Positions 22,939 to 27,149 of a stretch of DNA of 64,000 nt are shown one piece after another. Origin of the DNA: Candidatus Latescibacterota bacterium (GTDB lineage: Bacteria > Latescibacterota > UBA2968 > GCA-2709665). The translations under genes and the position numbers were made by a program. Below the pieces are notes generated by a model. The model was not told the origin of the DNA. It made no database searches and worked only from the letters and a program-made list of their open reading frames with translations. The stretch lies in assembly GCA_965116875.1 (NCBI GenBank), contig OZ220733.1, positions 4,128,001 through 4,192,000 of the forward strand, in the 5' to 3' direction. Within the stretch, counting starts at the first letter, position 1; the number at the start of each line of letters is the position of its first letter.

Positions 22939-22972
22939 AGAAAAAACACGCCGGTAGCAGCGTGTTTTTTCT
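22939..22972 (-). terminator. Intrinsic terminator after the redoxin operon
   Basis: agaaaaaacacgc-loop-gcgtgttttttct hairpin with a U-tract on both strands. Confidence 0.8.
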
Positions 22973-22995
22973 GTTCCGATTTACCCTGCCTGAAC

Positions 22996-23973
22996 TTATG
23001 GCACGCTCTTGCCGAAGTTCTTGGCGAATTCAAGAAAATCCGTGAAGTCGACCAGGCCGTTTCCATCCAGGTCGAAGGTCGGGTTGTCGGTGCTGAAGGC
23101 CTGGGCGAAGGCGACGAAGTCGCTGAATCCGATTTGTCCGTCATGGTCGAAGTCGGCCCGGGGATTGAGGGGTACAACGATGACCGCTCCGGAAACAGCG
23201 AGCGTGATGCTTCTGTTTTCCGGATCGTCGCTCAGGATTGTCAGGTTGCCGGAGAAGGGTCCGGATTCCGCCGGAGTGAATGTGATCGCCACTCTCGCGC
23301 TGTCTCCTGCCGCGACCGTTACCTCGGTCGTGTTAATAGAGATTTCCTCGAGATCGGATTGAATGTTGCTGATCGTGAGCGATTCTCCTCCGGTATTGTA
23401 CACGACCAGGGTGAGCGTTTTGGATACTCCGGCTGAAACGTCCTCGCCAAAGTCGAGTGAAGGTTTCGAAAGATCGATCGCCGGCGGCGGAACGCTCAGC
23501 AGTTCCCGGATACGCGCGGCCGTTGCGGTGATTGACGCAGGTTTTCGTATCCCGATGTGACGGATAATGCCCTTGCGGTCCACGACAAGCGTATGGTCAA
23601 CGCCGAGAGTTCTCGGAAACGCGCGGCCGGCCCGGAGGAGAAGCGGGAACGTGACACCGGTGACTCTTTGAAAGTCCCGCAGTTCCGATTTGCTGCCATT
23701 GTAGACGTCGAGTCCCAGAACCGTCAGGCTGTCATCCTGGAACGCCCTCCAAATCTGTCTTTCTATAGACGGACCCGTCTGTCTGCACAGGTCTCAGTTA
23801 TGGCCCAGGTAGTAGAGCACGAAGACGCGCCCCATGTAATCTGCGGGCGTGTAGGTCTTGTCATCCAACCCCGTGAGCGAGAAGGTCGGTACTGTGTCGC
23901 CGACCTTCTGAGCCCGTGCAGACGCAGGCGCGAAGAGTCCCAGAATCACTGCGGCAATCAAGGGTCGGTACAT
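22996..23973 (-). CDS. Putative selenoprotein B: exported redoxin (UDLC) + Ig-like domain + dockerin/EF-hand-like tail
   Basis: ATG 23973 with RBS gagg; signal peptide MYRPLIAAVILGLFAPASARA; VLYYLGHN-TGA(23794-23796)-DLCRQTGP, then open in frame to TAA 22996; 325 aa with Sec. Confidence 0.85.
23767..23793 (-). promoter_or_regulatory. Candidate bacterial SECIS, gene B
   Basis: AGACAGA-CGGG-UCCGUCU hairpin (one A.C mismatch), loop at +17 from UGA. Confidence 0.5.
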
Positions 23974-24027
23974 GGGATACCTCTTTCAGGAAGGGAAAGT
24001 CCTGCGGGTGTATACGCCCGGGGAAAC

Positions 24028-25011
24028 TCATGGCACGCTCTTGCCGAAGTTCTTGGCGAATTCGAGGAAGTCCGGGAAGTCGACTACGCCGTTCCCATTC
24101 AGGTCGAAGGTCGGGTTGTCGGTGCTGAAGGCCTGGGCGAAGGCGACGAAGTCGCTGAATCCGATTTGTCCGTCATTGTCGAAGTCCGCCCGGGGATTGA
24201 CCGGGACTACGATGGCGGTTCCGGAAATCGCGACGGTAACGGTGCCCTTCTCCGGGTCGTCGCTGGAAATGGTAATCGTCCCGGAAAACGGACCGCCCTC
24301 CGTGGGCGTAAAGGTGATGTCGACGGTAGCGCTGTCGCCCGGTGCGACCGTAAGTTCCGTCATGCTGAACGTGACGCCCTCCAGGTCGGACTCCAGGTTC
24401 GTAATGCTGAGGTCCTCCCCTCCCGTATTCTTCACGACGAGGGTTACGGTCCTGGTTTCGCCGGCCGGAACGTCCTGGCCGAAGTCGAGCGAAGTACCTG
24501 GAACATCGATTGCCGGCGGCTGAACGGTCAGCAATTCCCGGACGCTCGCCGCCGCTGCGCTGAGACCGGAAGCGCCGCGCCCGATGTGACGGACAATCCC
24601 TTCGCGGTCCGCGACCAGCAGAGTGTGGGTCCCGTGAGATCCCCTGATATTGCCTGCCTGAAGCAGGAGGGGAAACGAGATCGTGGACACGGACTGAAAA
24701 TTCCTGAGCTGAGCCTGACTGCCATTGTAGATGTCAAGTCCCAGGACCGCAAAGCCGTCATCATCCTGGAACGCCTTCCAGATCTGTTGTTCTATGGACG
24801 GACCCGCCGCCCGGCAGGTCGGTCAGTTATGGCCCAGGTAGTAAAGAGCCAGAACACTTCCCTCATAATTCGCGGAGGCATAGGTTTTGCCGTCCAGCCC
24901 CGTAAGCGAAAACGTTGGTACCGCGTCACCGACGTTCTGGGCTTCCGCGGGCCCGCCCGGGCAAAACCCCAGGACCAGCAGGAACACGACGCAGGCAGCG
25001 ATTCGACCCAT
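24028..25011 (-). CDS. Putative selenoprotein A: exported redoxin (UPTC) + Ig-like domain + dockerin/EF-hand-like tail
   Basis: AGGAGG RBS; signal peptide; LYYLGHN-TGA(24823-24825)-PTCRAAGPSIEQQIWKAFQ joins the 24028..24690 ORF in frame; 327 aa with Sec. Confidence 0.85.
24796..24822 (-). promoter_or_regulatory. Candidate bacterial SECIS, gene A
   Basis: GGGCGG-CGGGU-CCGUCC hairpin, loop at +17 from UGA. Confidence 0.5.
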
Positions 25012-25045
25012 TGCAATCCTCCTTTGAGATGGTGTGTGGTCTGCG

Positions 25046-26629
25046 TCAGAAATAGGTCTTCAGACGCATTTCAAGGCCATTGAACGGCAACACGAGATAG
25101 CATGTCCCGGATGTGCACGCGGCGCCGCCTCGCCTGCGGCCGGCGAATACGAAGGCTTCGTATCGATCGAGAAAGGCGACGTTCAGGTTGACCGACAGCC
25201 AGGAACGAGCCCCGGTCTCGACCCGGTCCGGCGTTGCGCCGTCATCCACTTCGAATGGATCGTTGGTGCGATCCAGTATGACTGCGGCGCCCACACCCGA
25301 GGGATGCTGGAAGGAAAACTGGGTAAAGACGTCCTGGAACACCGGCTGGTTTCGGGGCTGCCTGGCCGCGCGCCGGACCTGCAGATCGAAACCCAGGACA
25401 GACCCTCCGGGTGTAATGGATTCGACCCCCACACCGCCGATCCGGTGCATTCCGATTCCCTTCAGTTCGTCTTTTCCCCAATCAAAAAAGACGGTAGACG
25501 TCAAGCTGTGCCCGCCGGGCTGCCGAGGCAGTTCAACGTCCACGCCCAGATACCGCTCGTTGAACGTCGTTGAAAAGCCGGGCGCCAGTTCGTTCTCTCC
25601 CTTGCTGACGTTTGCCGTCAGCGTGCCCAGTCCGAAAATCGAATACGTTGCTTCCACCTGGTAGCCCGTTTCAGCATCGGCAATCAGGGCATGCGTGGAC
25701 CGGTTGAGCAGGACGGCCGCGTGTTCGCGGACCAGGGACGGGGGATCGTTGAAGCTGTAGGCGAATTTCTCATAGTCCTTGTATTCCAGGCTCAATCCCA
25801 GATTGGAAATGCCGGCGTTGGCCGAAAGATACAGAGCGCTGCCGTCCACGTGCGCGTCAATCAGCCCGGCGTATTCGGCGTAGACGGTCGCATAGCCGTC
25901 CGGAAAGCCCGATGCTTCAATTGCGGGCGTGACGTCGAATTCCAGAAAACCCGACCACGTTCGCGTGGAGTCAATCCTGGCGGCGTGATGGCTTACGGCC
26001 GTGACGCCGGCCTTGATCCGGCTCGTCGGTCGCAGCGAGACTTCCCCTCCGAGAAGCCAGTTTTCACGCCGTGGTACGTCCCGCAGAGGATCACCCACCC
26101 GCACCGCCGGCGGGATGTCGCTTAATACTGGACGGCCGATCAGGGCTTTTGCCTCGGCCCGGGGACCCGCCCAGGTGGCCATGCCGCCCTCGAGGTCTCG
26201 GGACGGCGAATAGCGGCGCCGGTATTGTCCGCTCTCCAGAACGACGCCAGGCAGATCGAAGGCCCTGAGCGTGATGCCGCGACCCAGGATGGCGTAGTAG
26301 TTGCCCGCAACCAGCTCGACCGGTCCCTGCGACCAGCGCAGGTGCTTCTGGGAAACATGCACGACCTGGTATTCAACCTGCGACAGCGGCGAGCCGGGAG
26401 CGGTGTTGCGCCATGCATTGAAAATCTCTGCCCGTAGTCCGGCCTGAAGACCGTGCCGCGTGTAATCGACGTCGAACTGCTCATAAAGTGACGAAACCGC
26501 CAGCGAGTCCGAGCCCGGGACGCGTCCCCGCTGGATTTCGGTCAGGCTGGATACGGTCACCTGCGCGACGACAGGCTTCGACGTCGCCAGCAGAAGGAGC
26601 ATTATCAGGCTATTGGTCAGCGCTCGCAT
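25046..26629 (-). CDS. DUF6029-like outer-membrane beta-barrel protein
   Basis: Signal peptide, AGNYYAILGRGITLR, EYKDY, NDPP, C-terminal GRRRGGAACTSGTCYLVLPFNGLEMRLKTYF ending in Phe. Confidence 0.75.
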   Translation of the reverse strand: MRALTNSLIMLLLLATSKPVVAQVTVSSLTEIQRGRVPGSDSLAVSSLYEQFDVDYTRHGLQAGLRAEIFNAWRNTAPGSPLSQVEYQVVHVSQKHLRWSQGPVELVAGNYYAILGRGITLRAFDLPGVVLESGQYRRRYSPSRDLEGGMATWAGPRAEAKALIGRPVLSDIPPAVRVGDPLRDVPRRENWLLGGEVSLRPTSRIKAGVTAVSHHAARIDSTRTWSGFLEFDVTPAIEASGFPDGYATVYAEYAGLIDAHVDGSALYLSANAGISNLGLSLEYKDYEKFAYSFNDPPSLVREHAAVLLNRSTHALIADAETGYQVEATYSIFGLGTLTANVSKGENELAPGFSTTFNERYLGVDVELPRQPGGHSLTSTVFFDWGKDELKGIGMHRIGGVGVESITPGGSVLGFDLQVRRAARQPRNQPVFQDVFTQFSFQHPSGVGAAVILDRTNDPFEVDDGATPDRVETGARSWLSVNLNVAFLDRYEAFVFAGRRRGGAACTSGTCYLVLPFNGLEMRLKTYF

Positions 26630-27149
26630 CGGCGTTCGCCCCGTCGTCGGCGCCGGGTTCGGGAAACAGCGCCTCGACTGCCGTCAGCAACACTTGGGCG
26701 TTTTTCGAATGATATCCGACCTGCCGCAGCGCAATCTCTCCGTCCGGGGTGATCAGGAGCGTCGTCGGCAGGACGTTCACCTGCATTCGCCGCATGACCG
26801 CGCTGTCAGAGTCGAGGACGATCGGGAAGTTGACCTTTCTCGCCCGCAGAAAGGGTTTCACACGGTTCTGCCCACGCGGCCCGTCCACGTTTACGCCAAG
26901 TACGGTAAGCCCTGATTTGCCGTACTTCTCGTGAATCTTCTGGAGCTTGGGCATCGCCTTGACGCAAGGCTTGCAGTAGGTCGCCCAGAAATCCAGAAGT
27001 ACCGGACCCTTTGTCAGCAGGTTTTTGAGGTTGACGCGTTCGCCCTGCAGGTCCCGGAGGTTGAAGTCGGGGGCCGAGGCGGCGTTCAGCGTCGCTGCGC
27101 CCAGGGAAATTGAGGCGGCGATGGTCAGGGTATGAACGATCGTCTTCAT
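26610..27149 (-). CDS. TlpA-family thiol-disulfide oxidoreductase, exported
   Basis: Signal peptide, APDFNL, DFWATYCKPC, VLPTTLLI. Confidence 0.92.
   Translation of the reverse strand: MKTIVHTLTIAASISLGAATLNAASAPDFNLRDLQGERVNLKNLLTKGPVLLDFWATYCKPCVKAMPKLQKIHEKYGKSGLTVLGVNVDGPRGQNRVKPFLRARKVNFPIVLDSDSAVMRRMQVNVLPTTLLITPDGEIALRQVGYHSKNAQVLLTAVEALFPEPGADDGANADASADQ

What the first reader, a model, noticed from the sequence alone, without database searches (positions are those of the whole stretch)
22996..23973. Hidden selenoprotein B: the paralog keeps TGA at the same position (UDLC)
Its N-terminal 59 aa are missing from the ORF track. YYLGHN-TGA is identical in both paralogs while the neighbouring codons have diverged (PT vs DL; signal peptides barely similar), and both frames remain intact. 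That argues against a chance nonsense mutation or sequencing error. Both also lack the usual cis-Pro of the redoxin fold (GVDHTLVVD, GTHTLLVAD have His there), which hints at altered chemistry (inference).
Basis: partly seen in the sequence, partly recalled or inferred. Interest (0 to 1): 0.8.

Follow-up and report, generated by a model that had tools for sequence, protein, structure and literature searches.

The report
Hidden secreted thioredoxin-like selenoprotein, second copy
This is a real but unannotated selenoprotein gene: the younger of two tandem copies of an exported thioredoxin-fold redox enzyme that reads an in-frame TGA as selenocysteine, an ordinary kind of bacterial selenoprotein in an unusual surface-anchoring format.

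Summary
Window 22996-23973 (-) is one 325-codon frame interrupted only by TGA at codon 60 (23794-23796). Its tandem paralog, 24028-25011 (-), has TGA at the equivalent codon 63. Both TGAs sit at the first position of a UxxC redox motif.

- **Machinery:** the genome, whose closest named relatives are Candidatus Latescibacterota, encodes tRNA-Sec, SelA, SelB and a Sec-containing SelD.
- **Conservation:** the TGA recurs in 44 distinct homolog sequences. Bacteroidota homologs have Cys at that position.
- **Selection:** dN/dS is 0.05-0.37 on both sides of the TGA.
- **SECIS:** a short hairpin with a GGUC loop at nt +22-25 fits the published bacterial SECIS model. It shows some covariation and strong synonymous-site conservation, and matches this genome's own SelD element.

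The protein is a signal peptide, a TlpA/ResA-like thiol-disulfide oxidoreductase domain, an Ig-like domain and a dockerin-like tail. It belongs to the known class of PF00578 UxxC "Prx-like" selenoproteins.

Both copies lack the Pro, but His occupies that position only in paralog A. Paralog B has Asp there, and the family consensus is Asp/Glu.

Public protein sets hold only C-terminal fragments. No protein-level evidence exists.

The parts
22996..23973 (-). Paralog B coding sequence: 325 codons plus a TAA stop, with Sec at codon 60
   Evidence: AAAGAGG lies 7 nt upstream of the ATG (read). The gap to the stop of paralog A is 54 nt.
23794..23796 (-). In-frame TGA read as selenocysteine; first residue of the UDLC redox motif
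   Evidence: The same position holds TGA in 44 distinct homolog windows and Cys in Bacteroidota and some other homologs.
23767..23780 (-). Proposed SECIS core of paralog B: a 5-bp stem (AGACG/CGUCU) closing a GGUC loop at nt +22-25 from the U of UGA (loop = 23772-23775)
   Evidence: Sequence; pair counts; synonymous-site bias; this genome's SelD element; energy of only -3.7 kcal/mol.
23911..23973 (-). Signal peptide (residues 1-21, ...PASARA|QKVG)
   Evidence: Read from the sequence: a hydrophobic core followed by AxA. The model has low confidence and a helix at 4-12. No signal-peptide predictor was run.
23494..23910 (-). TlpA/ResA-like thioredoxin-fold domain (residues 22-160)
   Evidence: PF00578 46.8 bits and PF08534 33.0 bits. 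PDB sequence hits to 2LS5, 3KCM and ResA. Foldseek gives 2LS5 at E 6.4e-13 with TMt 0.79, and ResA at TMt 0.82.
23182..23484 (-). Ig-like (HYDIN/VesB/DUF1573, 'choice-of-anchor D') domain, residues 164-264
   Evidence: PF22544 47.7 bits and NF012200 49.3 bits. Foldseek gives 2E6J, the HYDIN PapD-like domain, at TMt 0.81.
22999..23166 (-). Dockerin-like C-terminal module with two DxDxDG calcium-loop repeats (residues 270-325)
   Evidence: EF-hand Pfam hits. NF041540 dockerin_GC scores 26.7 bits for B (cut-off 29) and 29.8 for A. The module is 43-64% identical to the C-termini of about 100 other frames of the genome, some of which pass PF00404.
24028..25011 (-). Paralog A: 327 codons, Sec codon 63 at 24823-24825, UPTC motif, and a 4-bp GGUC hairpin at 24797-24808
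25046..26629 (-). DUF6029 protein, a predicted outer-membrane beta-barrel; syntenic partner
   Evidence: PF19494 51.8 bits. The AF2 model is all-beta, pLDDT 71.4. All Foldseek top hits are outer-membrane barrels, at TM 0.3-0.5. Synteny.
26610..27149 (-). Canonical TlpA-like CxxC redoxin (WATYCKPC, with LPTT cis-Pro); first gene of the apparent operon
   Evidence: PF00578 89.2 bits. Sequence. Relatives are syntenic in Bacteroidota loci.
22940..22975 (.). Perfect 11-bp inverted repeat (A6CACGC/GCGTGT6) directly after the stop of paralog B; probably a bidirectional terminator
   Evidence: Seen by eye. The pattern scan did not report it.

Best explanation
Paralog B is a functional selenoprotein gene.

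**Decoding.** The ribosome reads UGA at codon 60 as selenocysteine, using the genome's own tRNA-Sec, SelA, SelB and SelD. SelB is recruited by a small hairpin that presents a GGUC loop 18 nt after the UGA.

**Product.** The protein is exported through an N-terminal signal peptide. It consists of a TlpA/ResA-type thiol-disulfide oxidoreductase domain with a Sec60-x-x-Cys63 active site, an Ig-like spacer domain, and a dockerin-like calcium-binding tail. That tail probably tethers it to cohesin-bearing scaffolds outside the cytoplasmic membrane.

**Chemistry (inferred).** The selenolate attacks a substrate disulfide, or another oxidised sulfur or peroxide species. A selenenylsulfide forms with Cys63. 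It is then re-reduced by an extracytoplasmic reductant, and the co-encoded canonical TlpA-like CxxC protein, fed by DsbD, is the obvious candidate.

**Origin.** Copy B arose by a recent tandem duplication of copy A within part of the genus.

**Status of each step.**
- Shown: the frame, the conservation, the selection, the machinery, the fold and the synteny.
- Inferred: Sec insertion itself, export, dockerin anchoring, the substrate and the redox partner.

**My odds.**
- Sec-decoded gene: about 0.9.
- Exported thiol-disulfide oxidoreductase: about 0.75.
- Dockerin tethering: about 0.5.
- The TlpA-like neighbour as reductant: about 0.35.
For: **Machinery.**
- tRNA-Sec scores 73.4 bits against a cut-off of 47.
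- SelA scores 474.8 bits.
- The SelB wing domain scores 74.6 bits, next to tRNA-Sec.
- SelD scores 366 bits and has its own in-frame TGA.

**UGA is not generally reassigned.** 26 of 38 long (>=300-codon) stop-to-stop frames in the window end in TGA, and paralog A itself ends in TGA.

**Conservation.**
- All 14 other genus genomes carry a one-TGA match.
- There are 44 distinct Sec windows.
- 37 of the 66 family ORFs have U and 29 have C. Some of the 29 are nested starts of tandem-domain genes.
- On the tree, a Latescibacterota clade holds 35 Sec and 2 Cys rows (SH-aLRT 89) and a Bacteroidota clade holds 24 Cys rows (97).

**Selection.** dN/dS before and after the TGA is 0.08 / 0.26 between the paralogs, and 0.05-0.37 / 0.10-0.26 in 14 ortholog pairs.

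**SECIS.**
- nt 22-25 read GGTC in 37 of 44 windows.
- Gly codon +7 is GGT in 38 of 40 cases, against 292 of 1273 (23%) elsewhere in the same genes.
- The four inner pairs are formed in 38, 42, 41 and 41 of 44 sequences.
- 17 cells have compensatory changes, reached by 1 of 500 shuffles. The covariation score is 0.229 against 0.164, also reached by 1 of 500.
- Slid controls pair in at most 55% of cells, against 70.2% for the proposed structure.
- This genome's SelD has a 7-bp stem with a GGUC loop at +21-24.
- The element meets the published bSECIS constraints (passage of PMC13188914) and the G23/U24 rule for E. coli (passage of PMC8659212).

**Fold.** The AF2 model has pLDDT 91.6, with 94 across residues 51-70. 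The best structural matches are TlpA/ResA-type proteins.

**Context.**
- DUF6029 is found in 53 of 82 loci.
- In the 16 Bacteroidota-labelled loci, a TlpA-like gene is present in 16 of 16 and DUF6029 in 15 of 16; the last locus is cut short.
- The genome has 3 cohesin matches over the cut-off.
- 25 of its 29 Dockerin_1 matches are over the cut-off.
- One DsbD is present.
Against: - There is no protein-level or Se-labelling evidence.
- The GGUC hairpin is short and weak in the two window genes. It is 5 bp at -3.7 kcal/mol in B and 4 bp at -0.6 in A, against -7.6 to -12.7 in many relatives.
- The thermodynamic optimum is a different, 5' hairpin that uses the same nucleotides. Folding z-scores are unremarkable: -1.13 and -2.31 for 70 nt, and +0.33 and -0.56 for 111 nt.
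- Two of the five covariation measures are not beyond shuffles. Pairs with a double change are reached by 35 of 500, and further pair types by 55 of 500. The tool also warns that related sequences can beat shuffles without any structure.
- The four outer pairs form in only 14-36 of 44 sequences.
- 7 of 44 Sec windows lack GGTC.
- The C-terminal module of B does not reach any dockerin model's cut-off.
- No RNA contig was found for B.
- Substrate and partner are inferred from fold and synteny only.
Confidence: 0.8

Rival explanations
1. The TGA terminates translation. The locus would then be a decaying pseudogene, or two separate products: a 59-aa peptide and a C-terminal Ig-dockerin protein started internally.
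For: Gene callers treat it this way. Public protein sets hold only 195-241-aa C-terminal fragments named 'DUF1573 domain-containing protein'. A GTG at 23583 opens a 195-aa ORF.
Against: - The TGA sits exactly on the catalytic position of a fold that the model predicts with pLDDT 94 across the junction.
- The 70 codons between the TGA and the GTG are open and conserved.
- dN/dS is well below 1 on both sides.
- The same TGA occurs in 44 distinct sequences across four families of the class.
- Cys replaces it in homologs.
Confidence: 0.04
2. UGA is read through, but by a standard amino acid (Cys or Trp, via near-cognate or suppressor decoding) rather than selenocysteine.
For: Nothing here measures selenium. 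The hairpin is weak in the window copies.
Against: - A complete, intact Sec pathway is present, with SelD itself Sec-encoded.
- The GGUC loop is conserved at synonymous sites at the SelB-type distance, and recurs in the SelD gene.
- TGA is the commonest ordinary stop in the window.
Confidence: 0.05
3. The domain is a peroxiredoxin-type peroxidase (AhpC/TSA) rather than a TlpA/ResA-type disulfide reductase.
For: The best Pfam hit is PF00578 AhpC/TSA. Bcp-type peroxiredoxins appear among the structural matches: 3HJP, 3DRN, 4X1U and 5ENU. Sec is an excellent peroxidatic residue (general knowledge).
Against: - The active site is UxxC, preceded by L-G-H-N. There is no Thr/Ser at -3 and no Pro at -7, so the PxxxT/SxxC signature is absent. 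That signature is recalled from general knowledge; the protein sequence is.
- The best sequence and structure matches are ResA, DsbE, 2LS5 and 3KCM.
- The NCBIfam ResA subfamily is the top redox hit, although well below its cut-off (37.8 against 170 bits).
Confidence: 0.15
4. Loss of the cis-Pro, together with nearby His residues (H58 in GHNU; H127 in B; the His at the Pro position in A), makes the site a metal- or metalloid-binding centre, in the manner of Sco proteins, rather than a redox catalyst.
For: No Pro occurs in the loop in any family member. Genus-specific His residues lie next to the motif.
Against: Neither His is conserved outside the genus, and the family consensus at the Pro position is Asp/Glu. 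The closest solved relative, 2LS5, also lacks the Pro (GITRNVLID in the alignment) and is described as a putative disulfide isomerase.
Confidence: 0.07

Closest known systems
'Prx-like thiol:disulfide oxidoreductase' selenoproteins (PF00578, UxxC; 'Prx-like 1' of the ocean metagenome surveys)
   Same: It has a PF00578 hit above the cut-off, a UxxC motif with Sec first, Cys-containing homologs, and a SECIS directly downstream. The family is listed as a known predicted selenoprotein family in the table passages of PMC13188914 and PMC2398784.
   Different: This clade has a signal peptide, an Ig-like domain and a dockerin-like tail, and it lacks the cis-Pro. No NCBIfam selenoprotein model reaches its cut-off. 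I could not fetch the reference accession named in the review, so orthology with it is untested.
Extracytoplasmic TlpA/ResA/CcmG(DsbE) thiol-disulfide oxidoreductases, and 2LS5 (putative disulfide isomerase of Bacteroides thetaiotaomicron)
   Same: The fold matches (TMt 0.79-0.85). The export signal, the position of the CxxC-type motif and the overall domain length also match.
   Different: Sec replaces the first Cys. The conserved cis-Pro is replaced by Asp in B and by His in A. Identity is only 18-28%. There is no link to cytochrome c maturation genes in the neighbourhood.
E. coli fdhF-type bacterial SECIS
   Same: It is a small apical hairpin just outside the ribosome footprint, with G and U at positions 23 and 24 from the U of UGA. 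The spacing and loop rules of the bSECIS model are met. The identity of the fdhF loop letters is my recollection, not a tool result.
   Different: The stem is shorter (4-5 bp in the window copies). No bulged U17 equivalent was identified. Stability is weak.
Dockerin-bearing (cellulosome-type) secreted proteins
   Same: The C-terminal tail carries two DxDxDG-type calcium loops, each followed by a helix. The genome has cohesin and many dockerin matches.
   Different: The cargo is a redox selenoenzyme rather than a glycoside hydrolase. The B tail is below every dockerin model's cut-off. Cohesin binding is untested.

Membership tests
Bacterial selenoprotein gene (Sec-decoded UGA) | The genome encodes tRNA-Sec, SelA, SelB and SelD | tested here: met
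   all are above the curated cut-offs.
Bacterial selenoprotein gene (Sec-decoded UGA) | The in-frame UGA aligns with Cys in homologs and is conserved in orthologs | tested here: met
Bacterial selenoprotein gene (Sec-decoded UGA) | A bSECIS downstream of the UGA: a loop of 3-9 nt, a stem of 4-16 bp, G in the first two loop positions, and 16-37 nt of spacing (criteria as quoted in PMC13188914) | tested here: met
   The loop is GGUC (4 nt), the stem is 5 bp in B and 4 bp in A, and 18 nt lie between the UGA and the loop. The model's free-energy criterion could not be checked, and stability is low.
Bacterial selenoprotein gene (Sec-decoded UGA) | Selenium is incorporated at the UGA position in the protein | not testable with these tools
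   This needs 75Se labelling or mass spectrometry.
Prx-like thiol:disulfide oxidoreductase selenoprotein (PF00578, UxxC) | A PF00578 domain with a UxxC motif | tested here: met
   B scores 46.8 bits and A 40.6 bits against a cut-off of 26. The motifs are UDLC and UPTC.
Typical peroxiredoxin (AhpC/Bcp) | A PxxxT/SxxC peroxidatic motif (feature recalled from general knowledge) | tested here: not met
   The residues before Sec are V-L-Y-Y-L-G-H-N. There is no Thr/Ser at -3 and no Pro at -7.
TlpA/ResA/DsbE-like extracytoplasmic oxidoreductases | A thioredoxin fold with the TlpA-type additions | tested here: met
   Foldseek top matches are 2LS5, ResA, 3GL3 and 4GRF, at TMt 0.79-0.85.
TlpA/ResA/DsbE-like extracytoplasmic oxidoreductases | A conserved cis-Pro in the loop facing the active site | tested here: not met
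   The Pro of 3KCM aligns with Asp in B and His in A. No Pro occurs there in any of the 36 aligned family members.
TlpA/ResA/DsbE-like extracytoplasmic oxidoreductases | An export signal or membrane anchor | tested here: inconclusive
   The N-terminal hydrophobic segment and AxA motif were read from the sequence. No predictor was run. Relatives carry lipoprotein-like or T9SS-type ends.
Dockerin | A match to a curated dockerin model | tested here: inconclusive
   PF00404 gave no match for A or B. NF041540 scores 26.7 bits for B (below the cut-off of 29) and 29.8 for A. The tail is homologous to C-termini that do pass PF00404.
Dockerin | Binds a cohesin | not tested
   Cohesin domains exist in the genome. 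No complex prediction or assay was done.

The most novel reading that the evidence does not exclude
The family may be the catalytic end of a conserved three-part envelope redox module: a canonical TlpA-like reductase, a DUF6029 outer-membrane barrel, and this U/CxxC protein. In this reading the module carries reducing power to the cell surface. In Latescibacterota the terminal enzyme would then have become a dockerin-tethered, surface-displayed selenoenzyme. I found no such arrangement in print. Of the 2 papers in the held library that contain both 'dockerin' and 'selenoprotein', neither title concerns bacterial selenoproteins. It would act on extracellular disulfides, peroxides or host or environmental oxidants, not on periplasmic maturation substrates.
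Probability: 0.2. Interest if true: 0.65.

Novelty: new member of a known kind. Interest (0 to 1): 0.4.

Why it matters
It adds a widespread selenoprotein family to an uncultured phylum, and that family is systematically mis-annotated. Public protein sets contain only the C-terminal fragment, labelled DUF1573, so selenium use and envelope redox capacity of Latescibacterota are underestimated.

The family offers a natural Sec/Cys contrast. Latescibacterota forms mostly carry Sec and Bacteroidota forms carry Cys, in one conserved gene neighbourhood with a TlpA-like reductase and an uncharacterised outer-membrane barrel (DUF6029). That gives DUF6029 a testable functional context.

The SECIS has the E. 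coli-type G23/U24 loop placement. This makes heterologous expression a reasonable experiment.

The chemistry itself, a UxxC thioredoxin-fold selenoprotein, is the commonest kind known. The core finding is therefore sound but not surprising.

Tried and rejected
1. **The minimum-free-energy hairpins directly after the UGA.** The A-type register is paired in 78.9% of cells but has 0 compensatory changes and is not above shuffles (474 of 500 reach it). Synonymous changes in genus orthologs break it (seen). The B-type register pairs in 47.4% of cells with no signal. I rejected both as the conserved element. They may still form in free mRNA.
2. **The second hairpin, about 45 nt downstream (UGGAxGGCGUUCCAG).** It lies in the conserved IW(K/R)AFQ codons. 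It was not tested separately and no weight is given to it.
3. **Whole-segment folding z-scores.** They are not informative.
4. **Search of 5.8 billion proteins with residues 1-165.** It returned only 5 hits, all C-terminal fragments or Ig-domain proteins. No full-length annotated form was found. The 'longer' and 'shorter' length options were not run.
5. **NCBIfam.** No redox or selenoprotein model reached its cut-off. The OS_HP2 hit (22.8 and 29.2 bits against a cut-off of 100) is on the Ig domain, not on the Sec site.
6. **Sequencing runs.** No RNA contig lay on paralog B, except a 35-nt piece with 5 mismatches that belongs to something else. This is not evidence of silence. Small-share runs were not used to name a habitat.
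7. **Earlier notes of this scan.** There was nothing to show.
8. **Literature searches.** 'Latescibacteria' with 'selenocysteine' gave 4 papers, 3 of them listed. I opened one for passages, and its mention is incidental. 'Latescibacteria' with 'dockerin' and 'cohesin' gave 0 papers.
10. **Complex prediction of the TlpA-like neighbour with the selenoprotein domain.** Not run, because a transient redox pair is a poor case for that tool.
Full report
**Observation.**
On the minus strand, window 22996-23973 is a single 325-codon frame ending in TAA. One TGA, at codon 60 (23794-23796), interrupts it...VFVLYYLGHN-U-DLCRQTGPS.... Under the standard table the frame splits into two ORFs. One is 59 aa (23794-23973). 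The other is 195 aa and begins only at a GTG at 23583. The 70 codons between them are open but have no start codon.

Fifty-four bases upstream lies paralog A (24028-25011). It has TGA at the equivalent codon 63, the motif UPTC, and TGA also as its true stop. The two proteins are 65% identical. The six codons before the TGA are identical at the nucleotide level, and the two codons after it differ.

**Is it a real gene read through the TGA?**
The window's genome is one 5.45-Mb contig. Its nearest named relatives are Candidatus Latescibacterota MAGs, going by the record titles. The Sec machinery is complete:
- tRNA-Sec scores 73.4 bits and lies next to SelB and SelA.
- SelD is present and itself carries an in-frame TGA.

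UGA is not generally reassigned. 26 of 38 long stop-to-stop frames in the window end in TGA.

I searched 60 relatives with the protein, reading stops through.
- All 14 other genomes of the genus have a near-full-length match with exactly one TGA.
- By my hand tally of the listed rows, about 80 of 84 non-own matches that cover the N-terminal domain have one TGA and 4 have none.
- From those loci and from 53 loci of the species-genome collection, I extracted 44 distinct 54-nt windows with TGA at the same UxxC position.
- I also extracted 66 distinct family ORFs, 37 with U and 29 with C. Several of the C rows are nested starts of tandem-domain genes.

On a quick maximum-likelihood tree of 65 domain sequences, with the catalytic residue masked and a midpoint root used only for drawing:
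- The Latescibacterota rows form one group of 35 Sec and 2 Cys (SH-aLRT 89).
- The 24 Bacteroidota rows, all Cys, form another group (97).
- Paralog B and its three orthologs (G003, G008, G010) form a 100%-supported group nested inside the genus clade of A-type genes.

B is therefore a recent tandem duplicate, present in 4 of 15 genomes of the genus.

Nei-Gojobori dN/dS values are:
- Between the two paralogs: 0.08 upstream and 0.26 downstream of the TGA.
- In 14 ortholog comparisons: 0.05-0.37 upstream and 0.10-0.26 downstream.

DNA contigs of two runs cover both TGAs without a difference. One of those runs may be the source sample.

**SECIS.**
RNAfold's optimum places a hairpin directly after the UGA in both copies, but that hairpin is not the conserved element. 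Counted over the 44 sequences, the A-type register has no compensatory change and does not exceed shuffles. The B-type register is unpaired in most sequences.

What is conserved is GGGUCCG. It forms a small hairpin whose loop, GGUC, occupies nt +22 to +25 counted from the U of UGA.
- The four inner pairs are formed in 38, 42, 41 and 41 of 44 sequences.
- Pair 19-28 occurs as G-U (21), G-C (11) and A-U (10).
- Pair 18-29 occurs as G-C (33) and C-G (4).
- Cells with a change on both sides number 17, reached by 1 of 500 shuffles.
- The covariation score is 0.229 against 0.164, also reached by 1 of 500.
- Slid controls are clearly lower.

Against this, two measures are not exceptional: 35 of 500 and 55 of 500 shuffles reach them. 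The four outer pairs form in only 14-36 of 44 sequences. The tool also warns that related sequences can beat shuffles without any structure.

Independent support comes from synonymous sites. The Gly codon at +7 is GGT in 38 of 40 cases, against 23% (292 of 1273) of Gly codons elsewhere in the same genes. GGTC occupies nt 22-25 in 37 of 44 windows. The Cys paralog in L060 has GGC there.

The SelD gene of this same genome has a 7-bp stem with a GGUC loop at +21 to +24.

The element meets the published bacterial SECIS constraints: a loop of 3-9 nt, a stem of at least 4 bp, G in the first two loop positions, and 16-37 nt of spacing (passage of PMC13188914). It also places G and U at positions 23 and 24, the SelB contacts described for E. 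coli (passage of PMC8659212).

The weakness is stability. The hairpin is worth -3.7 kcal/mol (5 bp) in B and -0.6 (4 bp) in A, against -7.6 to -12.7 in many relatives. When UGA is in the A site, the first dozen or so downstream nucleotides lie inside the ribosome. The competing 5' hairpin would then be melted, and the GGUC hairpin could form just outside. This last point is inference from general knowledge.

**What the protein is.**
Pfam and NCBIfam give three modules:
- AhpC/TSA and Redoxin over residues 23-142.
- An Ig-like HYDIN/VesB/DUF1573 ('choice-of-anchor D') domain over residues 164-264.
- EF-hand-like or dockerin-like repeats at the C-terminus.

An AlphaFold model built on 36 family sequences has mean pLDDT 91.6, with 94 across the Sec site. 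The best structural matches are 2LS5 (putative disulfide isomerase of Bacteroides thetaiotaomicron; E 6.4e-13, TMt 0.79), ResA, DsbE-like proteins and DipZ. The Ig domain matches the HYDIN PapD-like domain.

The active site has no peroxiredoxin-type Thr or Pro in front of the Sec (the signature itself is recalled from general knowledge). I therefore file the domain with TlpA/ResA-type thiol-disulfide oxidoreductases, and with the known selenoprotein class 'Prx-like thiol:disulfide oxidoreductase, PF00578, UxxC' (table passages of PMC13188914 and PMC2398784).

The N-terminus looks like a cleavable signal peptide (read from the sequence). Relatives in other phyla end in T9SS-type sorting domains or start like lipoproteins. 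The family is thus consistently extracytoplasmic.

About 100 other frames of the genome share the C-terminal module. Some of these pass Pfam Dockerin_1: 25 of 29 matches are over the cut-off, though none of them is A or B. Cohesin domains are present. Tethering through a cohesin is plausible but untested, and the B tail is below every dockerin cut-off.

**The cis-Pro remark.**
3KCM contains the canonical GVPETFVID. Aligned to it residue by residue, the Pro position is Asp126 in B, with His127 next, and His in A. In the 36-sequence family alignment there is no Pro in this loop in any member, Sec or Cys, and the usual residue is Asp or Glu.

The closest solved relative, 2LS5, also lacks the Pro (alignment). 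By contrast, the neighbouring TlpA-like gene keeps LPTT.

So the loss of cis-Pro is real and family-wide, while the His is genus-specific and not positionally equivalent in the two copies. Whether this changes the chemistry could not be tested.

**Neighbourhood.**
The apparent operon on the minus strand, followed by an 11-bp inverted repeat (seen by eye), runs as follows:
- A canonical TlpA-like CxxC redoxin (26610-27149).
- DUF6029 (25046-26629).
- Paralog A.
- Paralog B.

DUF6029 models as an all-beta protein of more than 20 long strands (pLDDT 71.4). Its Foldseek matches are all outer-membrane barrels, at modest TM of 0.3-0.5. One paper relates DUF6029 to Wzi-type barrels by HHpred (passages of PMC9603273).

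DUF6029 lies next to the family gene in 53 of 82 fetched loci. In the 16 Bacteroidota-labelled loci, the order Cys-form gene, TlpA-like gene, DUF6029 is seen with TlpA-like in 16 of 16 and DUF6029 in 15 of 16; the last locus is cut short. Many loci of the sister Latescibacterota family lack DUF6029 within the 1.5-kb flanks. The genome has one DsbD.

This supports, but does not prove, a shared envelope redox function, with the TlpA-like protein as a candidate reductant.

**Annotation and literature.**
A search of 5.8 billion proteins with residues 1-165 found only C-terminal fragments of 195-241 aa, one of them named 'DUF1573 domain-containing protein'. The selenoprotein is therefore missed by public annotation. 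I found no paper in the held library that deals with Latescibacterota selenoproteins or a dockerin-bearing bacterial selenoprotein. Supplements were not consulted.

**Expression.**
A 198-nt contig of a metatranscriptomic library (X5) lies on 24774-24971 without a difference, and so spans paralog A's TGA. DNA carry-over cannot be excluded.

**Verdict.**
This is a genuine, unannotated Sec-encoding gene: the younger tandem copy of an exported TlpA-like UxxC oxidoreductase. The kind is well known. The architecture, the family-wide loss of cis-Pro and the conserved link to DUF6029 are the new parts.

Noticed in passing
window 22996-23190 vs 24028-24220: The dockerin-coding 3' ends of the two paralogs are almost identical. 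dS is 0.27 over 60 codons, against 0.9-1.8 in the rest of the genes. This suggests gene conversion between the tandem copies, or homogenisation of this module.
   Followed up: partly
G000:C1:1070717-1071640 (L098): SelD of this genome is itself a selenoprotein. Its in-frame TGA is followed by a 7-bp stem with a GGUC loop at +21-24.
   Followed up: partly
L073, L077, L080, L081, L083, L095, about 1 kb upstream of the family gene, same strand: A conserved frame reads ...SSAR-U-SSCAMTC..., with TGA where L084, L071 and L090 have Cys and where L068 and L069 have Trp (TGG). It may be a second U/C-pair gene in the sister family.
   Followed up: no
window 23557-25083 (+): A 508-aa ORF runs antisense across both selenoprotein genes. 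It is most likely a spurious frame of a 59% GC region, because selection and homology follow the minus strand.
   Followed up: no
L070, L076, L078, L082, L085, L087-L089, L091, L092; L067, L094, L096: Bacteroidota Cys homologs carry two tandem copies of the domain in one lipoprotein-like gene. Calditrichota and Cytophagia members end in a T9SS-type C-terminal sorting sequence instead of a dockerin, and the Calditrichia one (L067) is a Sec form with a fully compensated stem (GGUU/AACC).
   Followed up: partly
L045, L047: Two records titled Gemmatimonadota carry both paralogs at 88-91% identity to the window's genes, like the Latescibacterota records. The taxonomic label of these bins may be wrong.
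   Followed up: no
window 24774-24971: A contig from a metatranscriptomic library (X5) matches this stretch without a difference and spans the TGA of paralog A.
   Followed up: partly
window 34342-34515: tRNA-Ile(GAT) and tRNA-Ala(TGC) lie 22 nt apart, the usual spacer of an rRNA operon.
   Followed up: no
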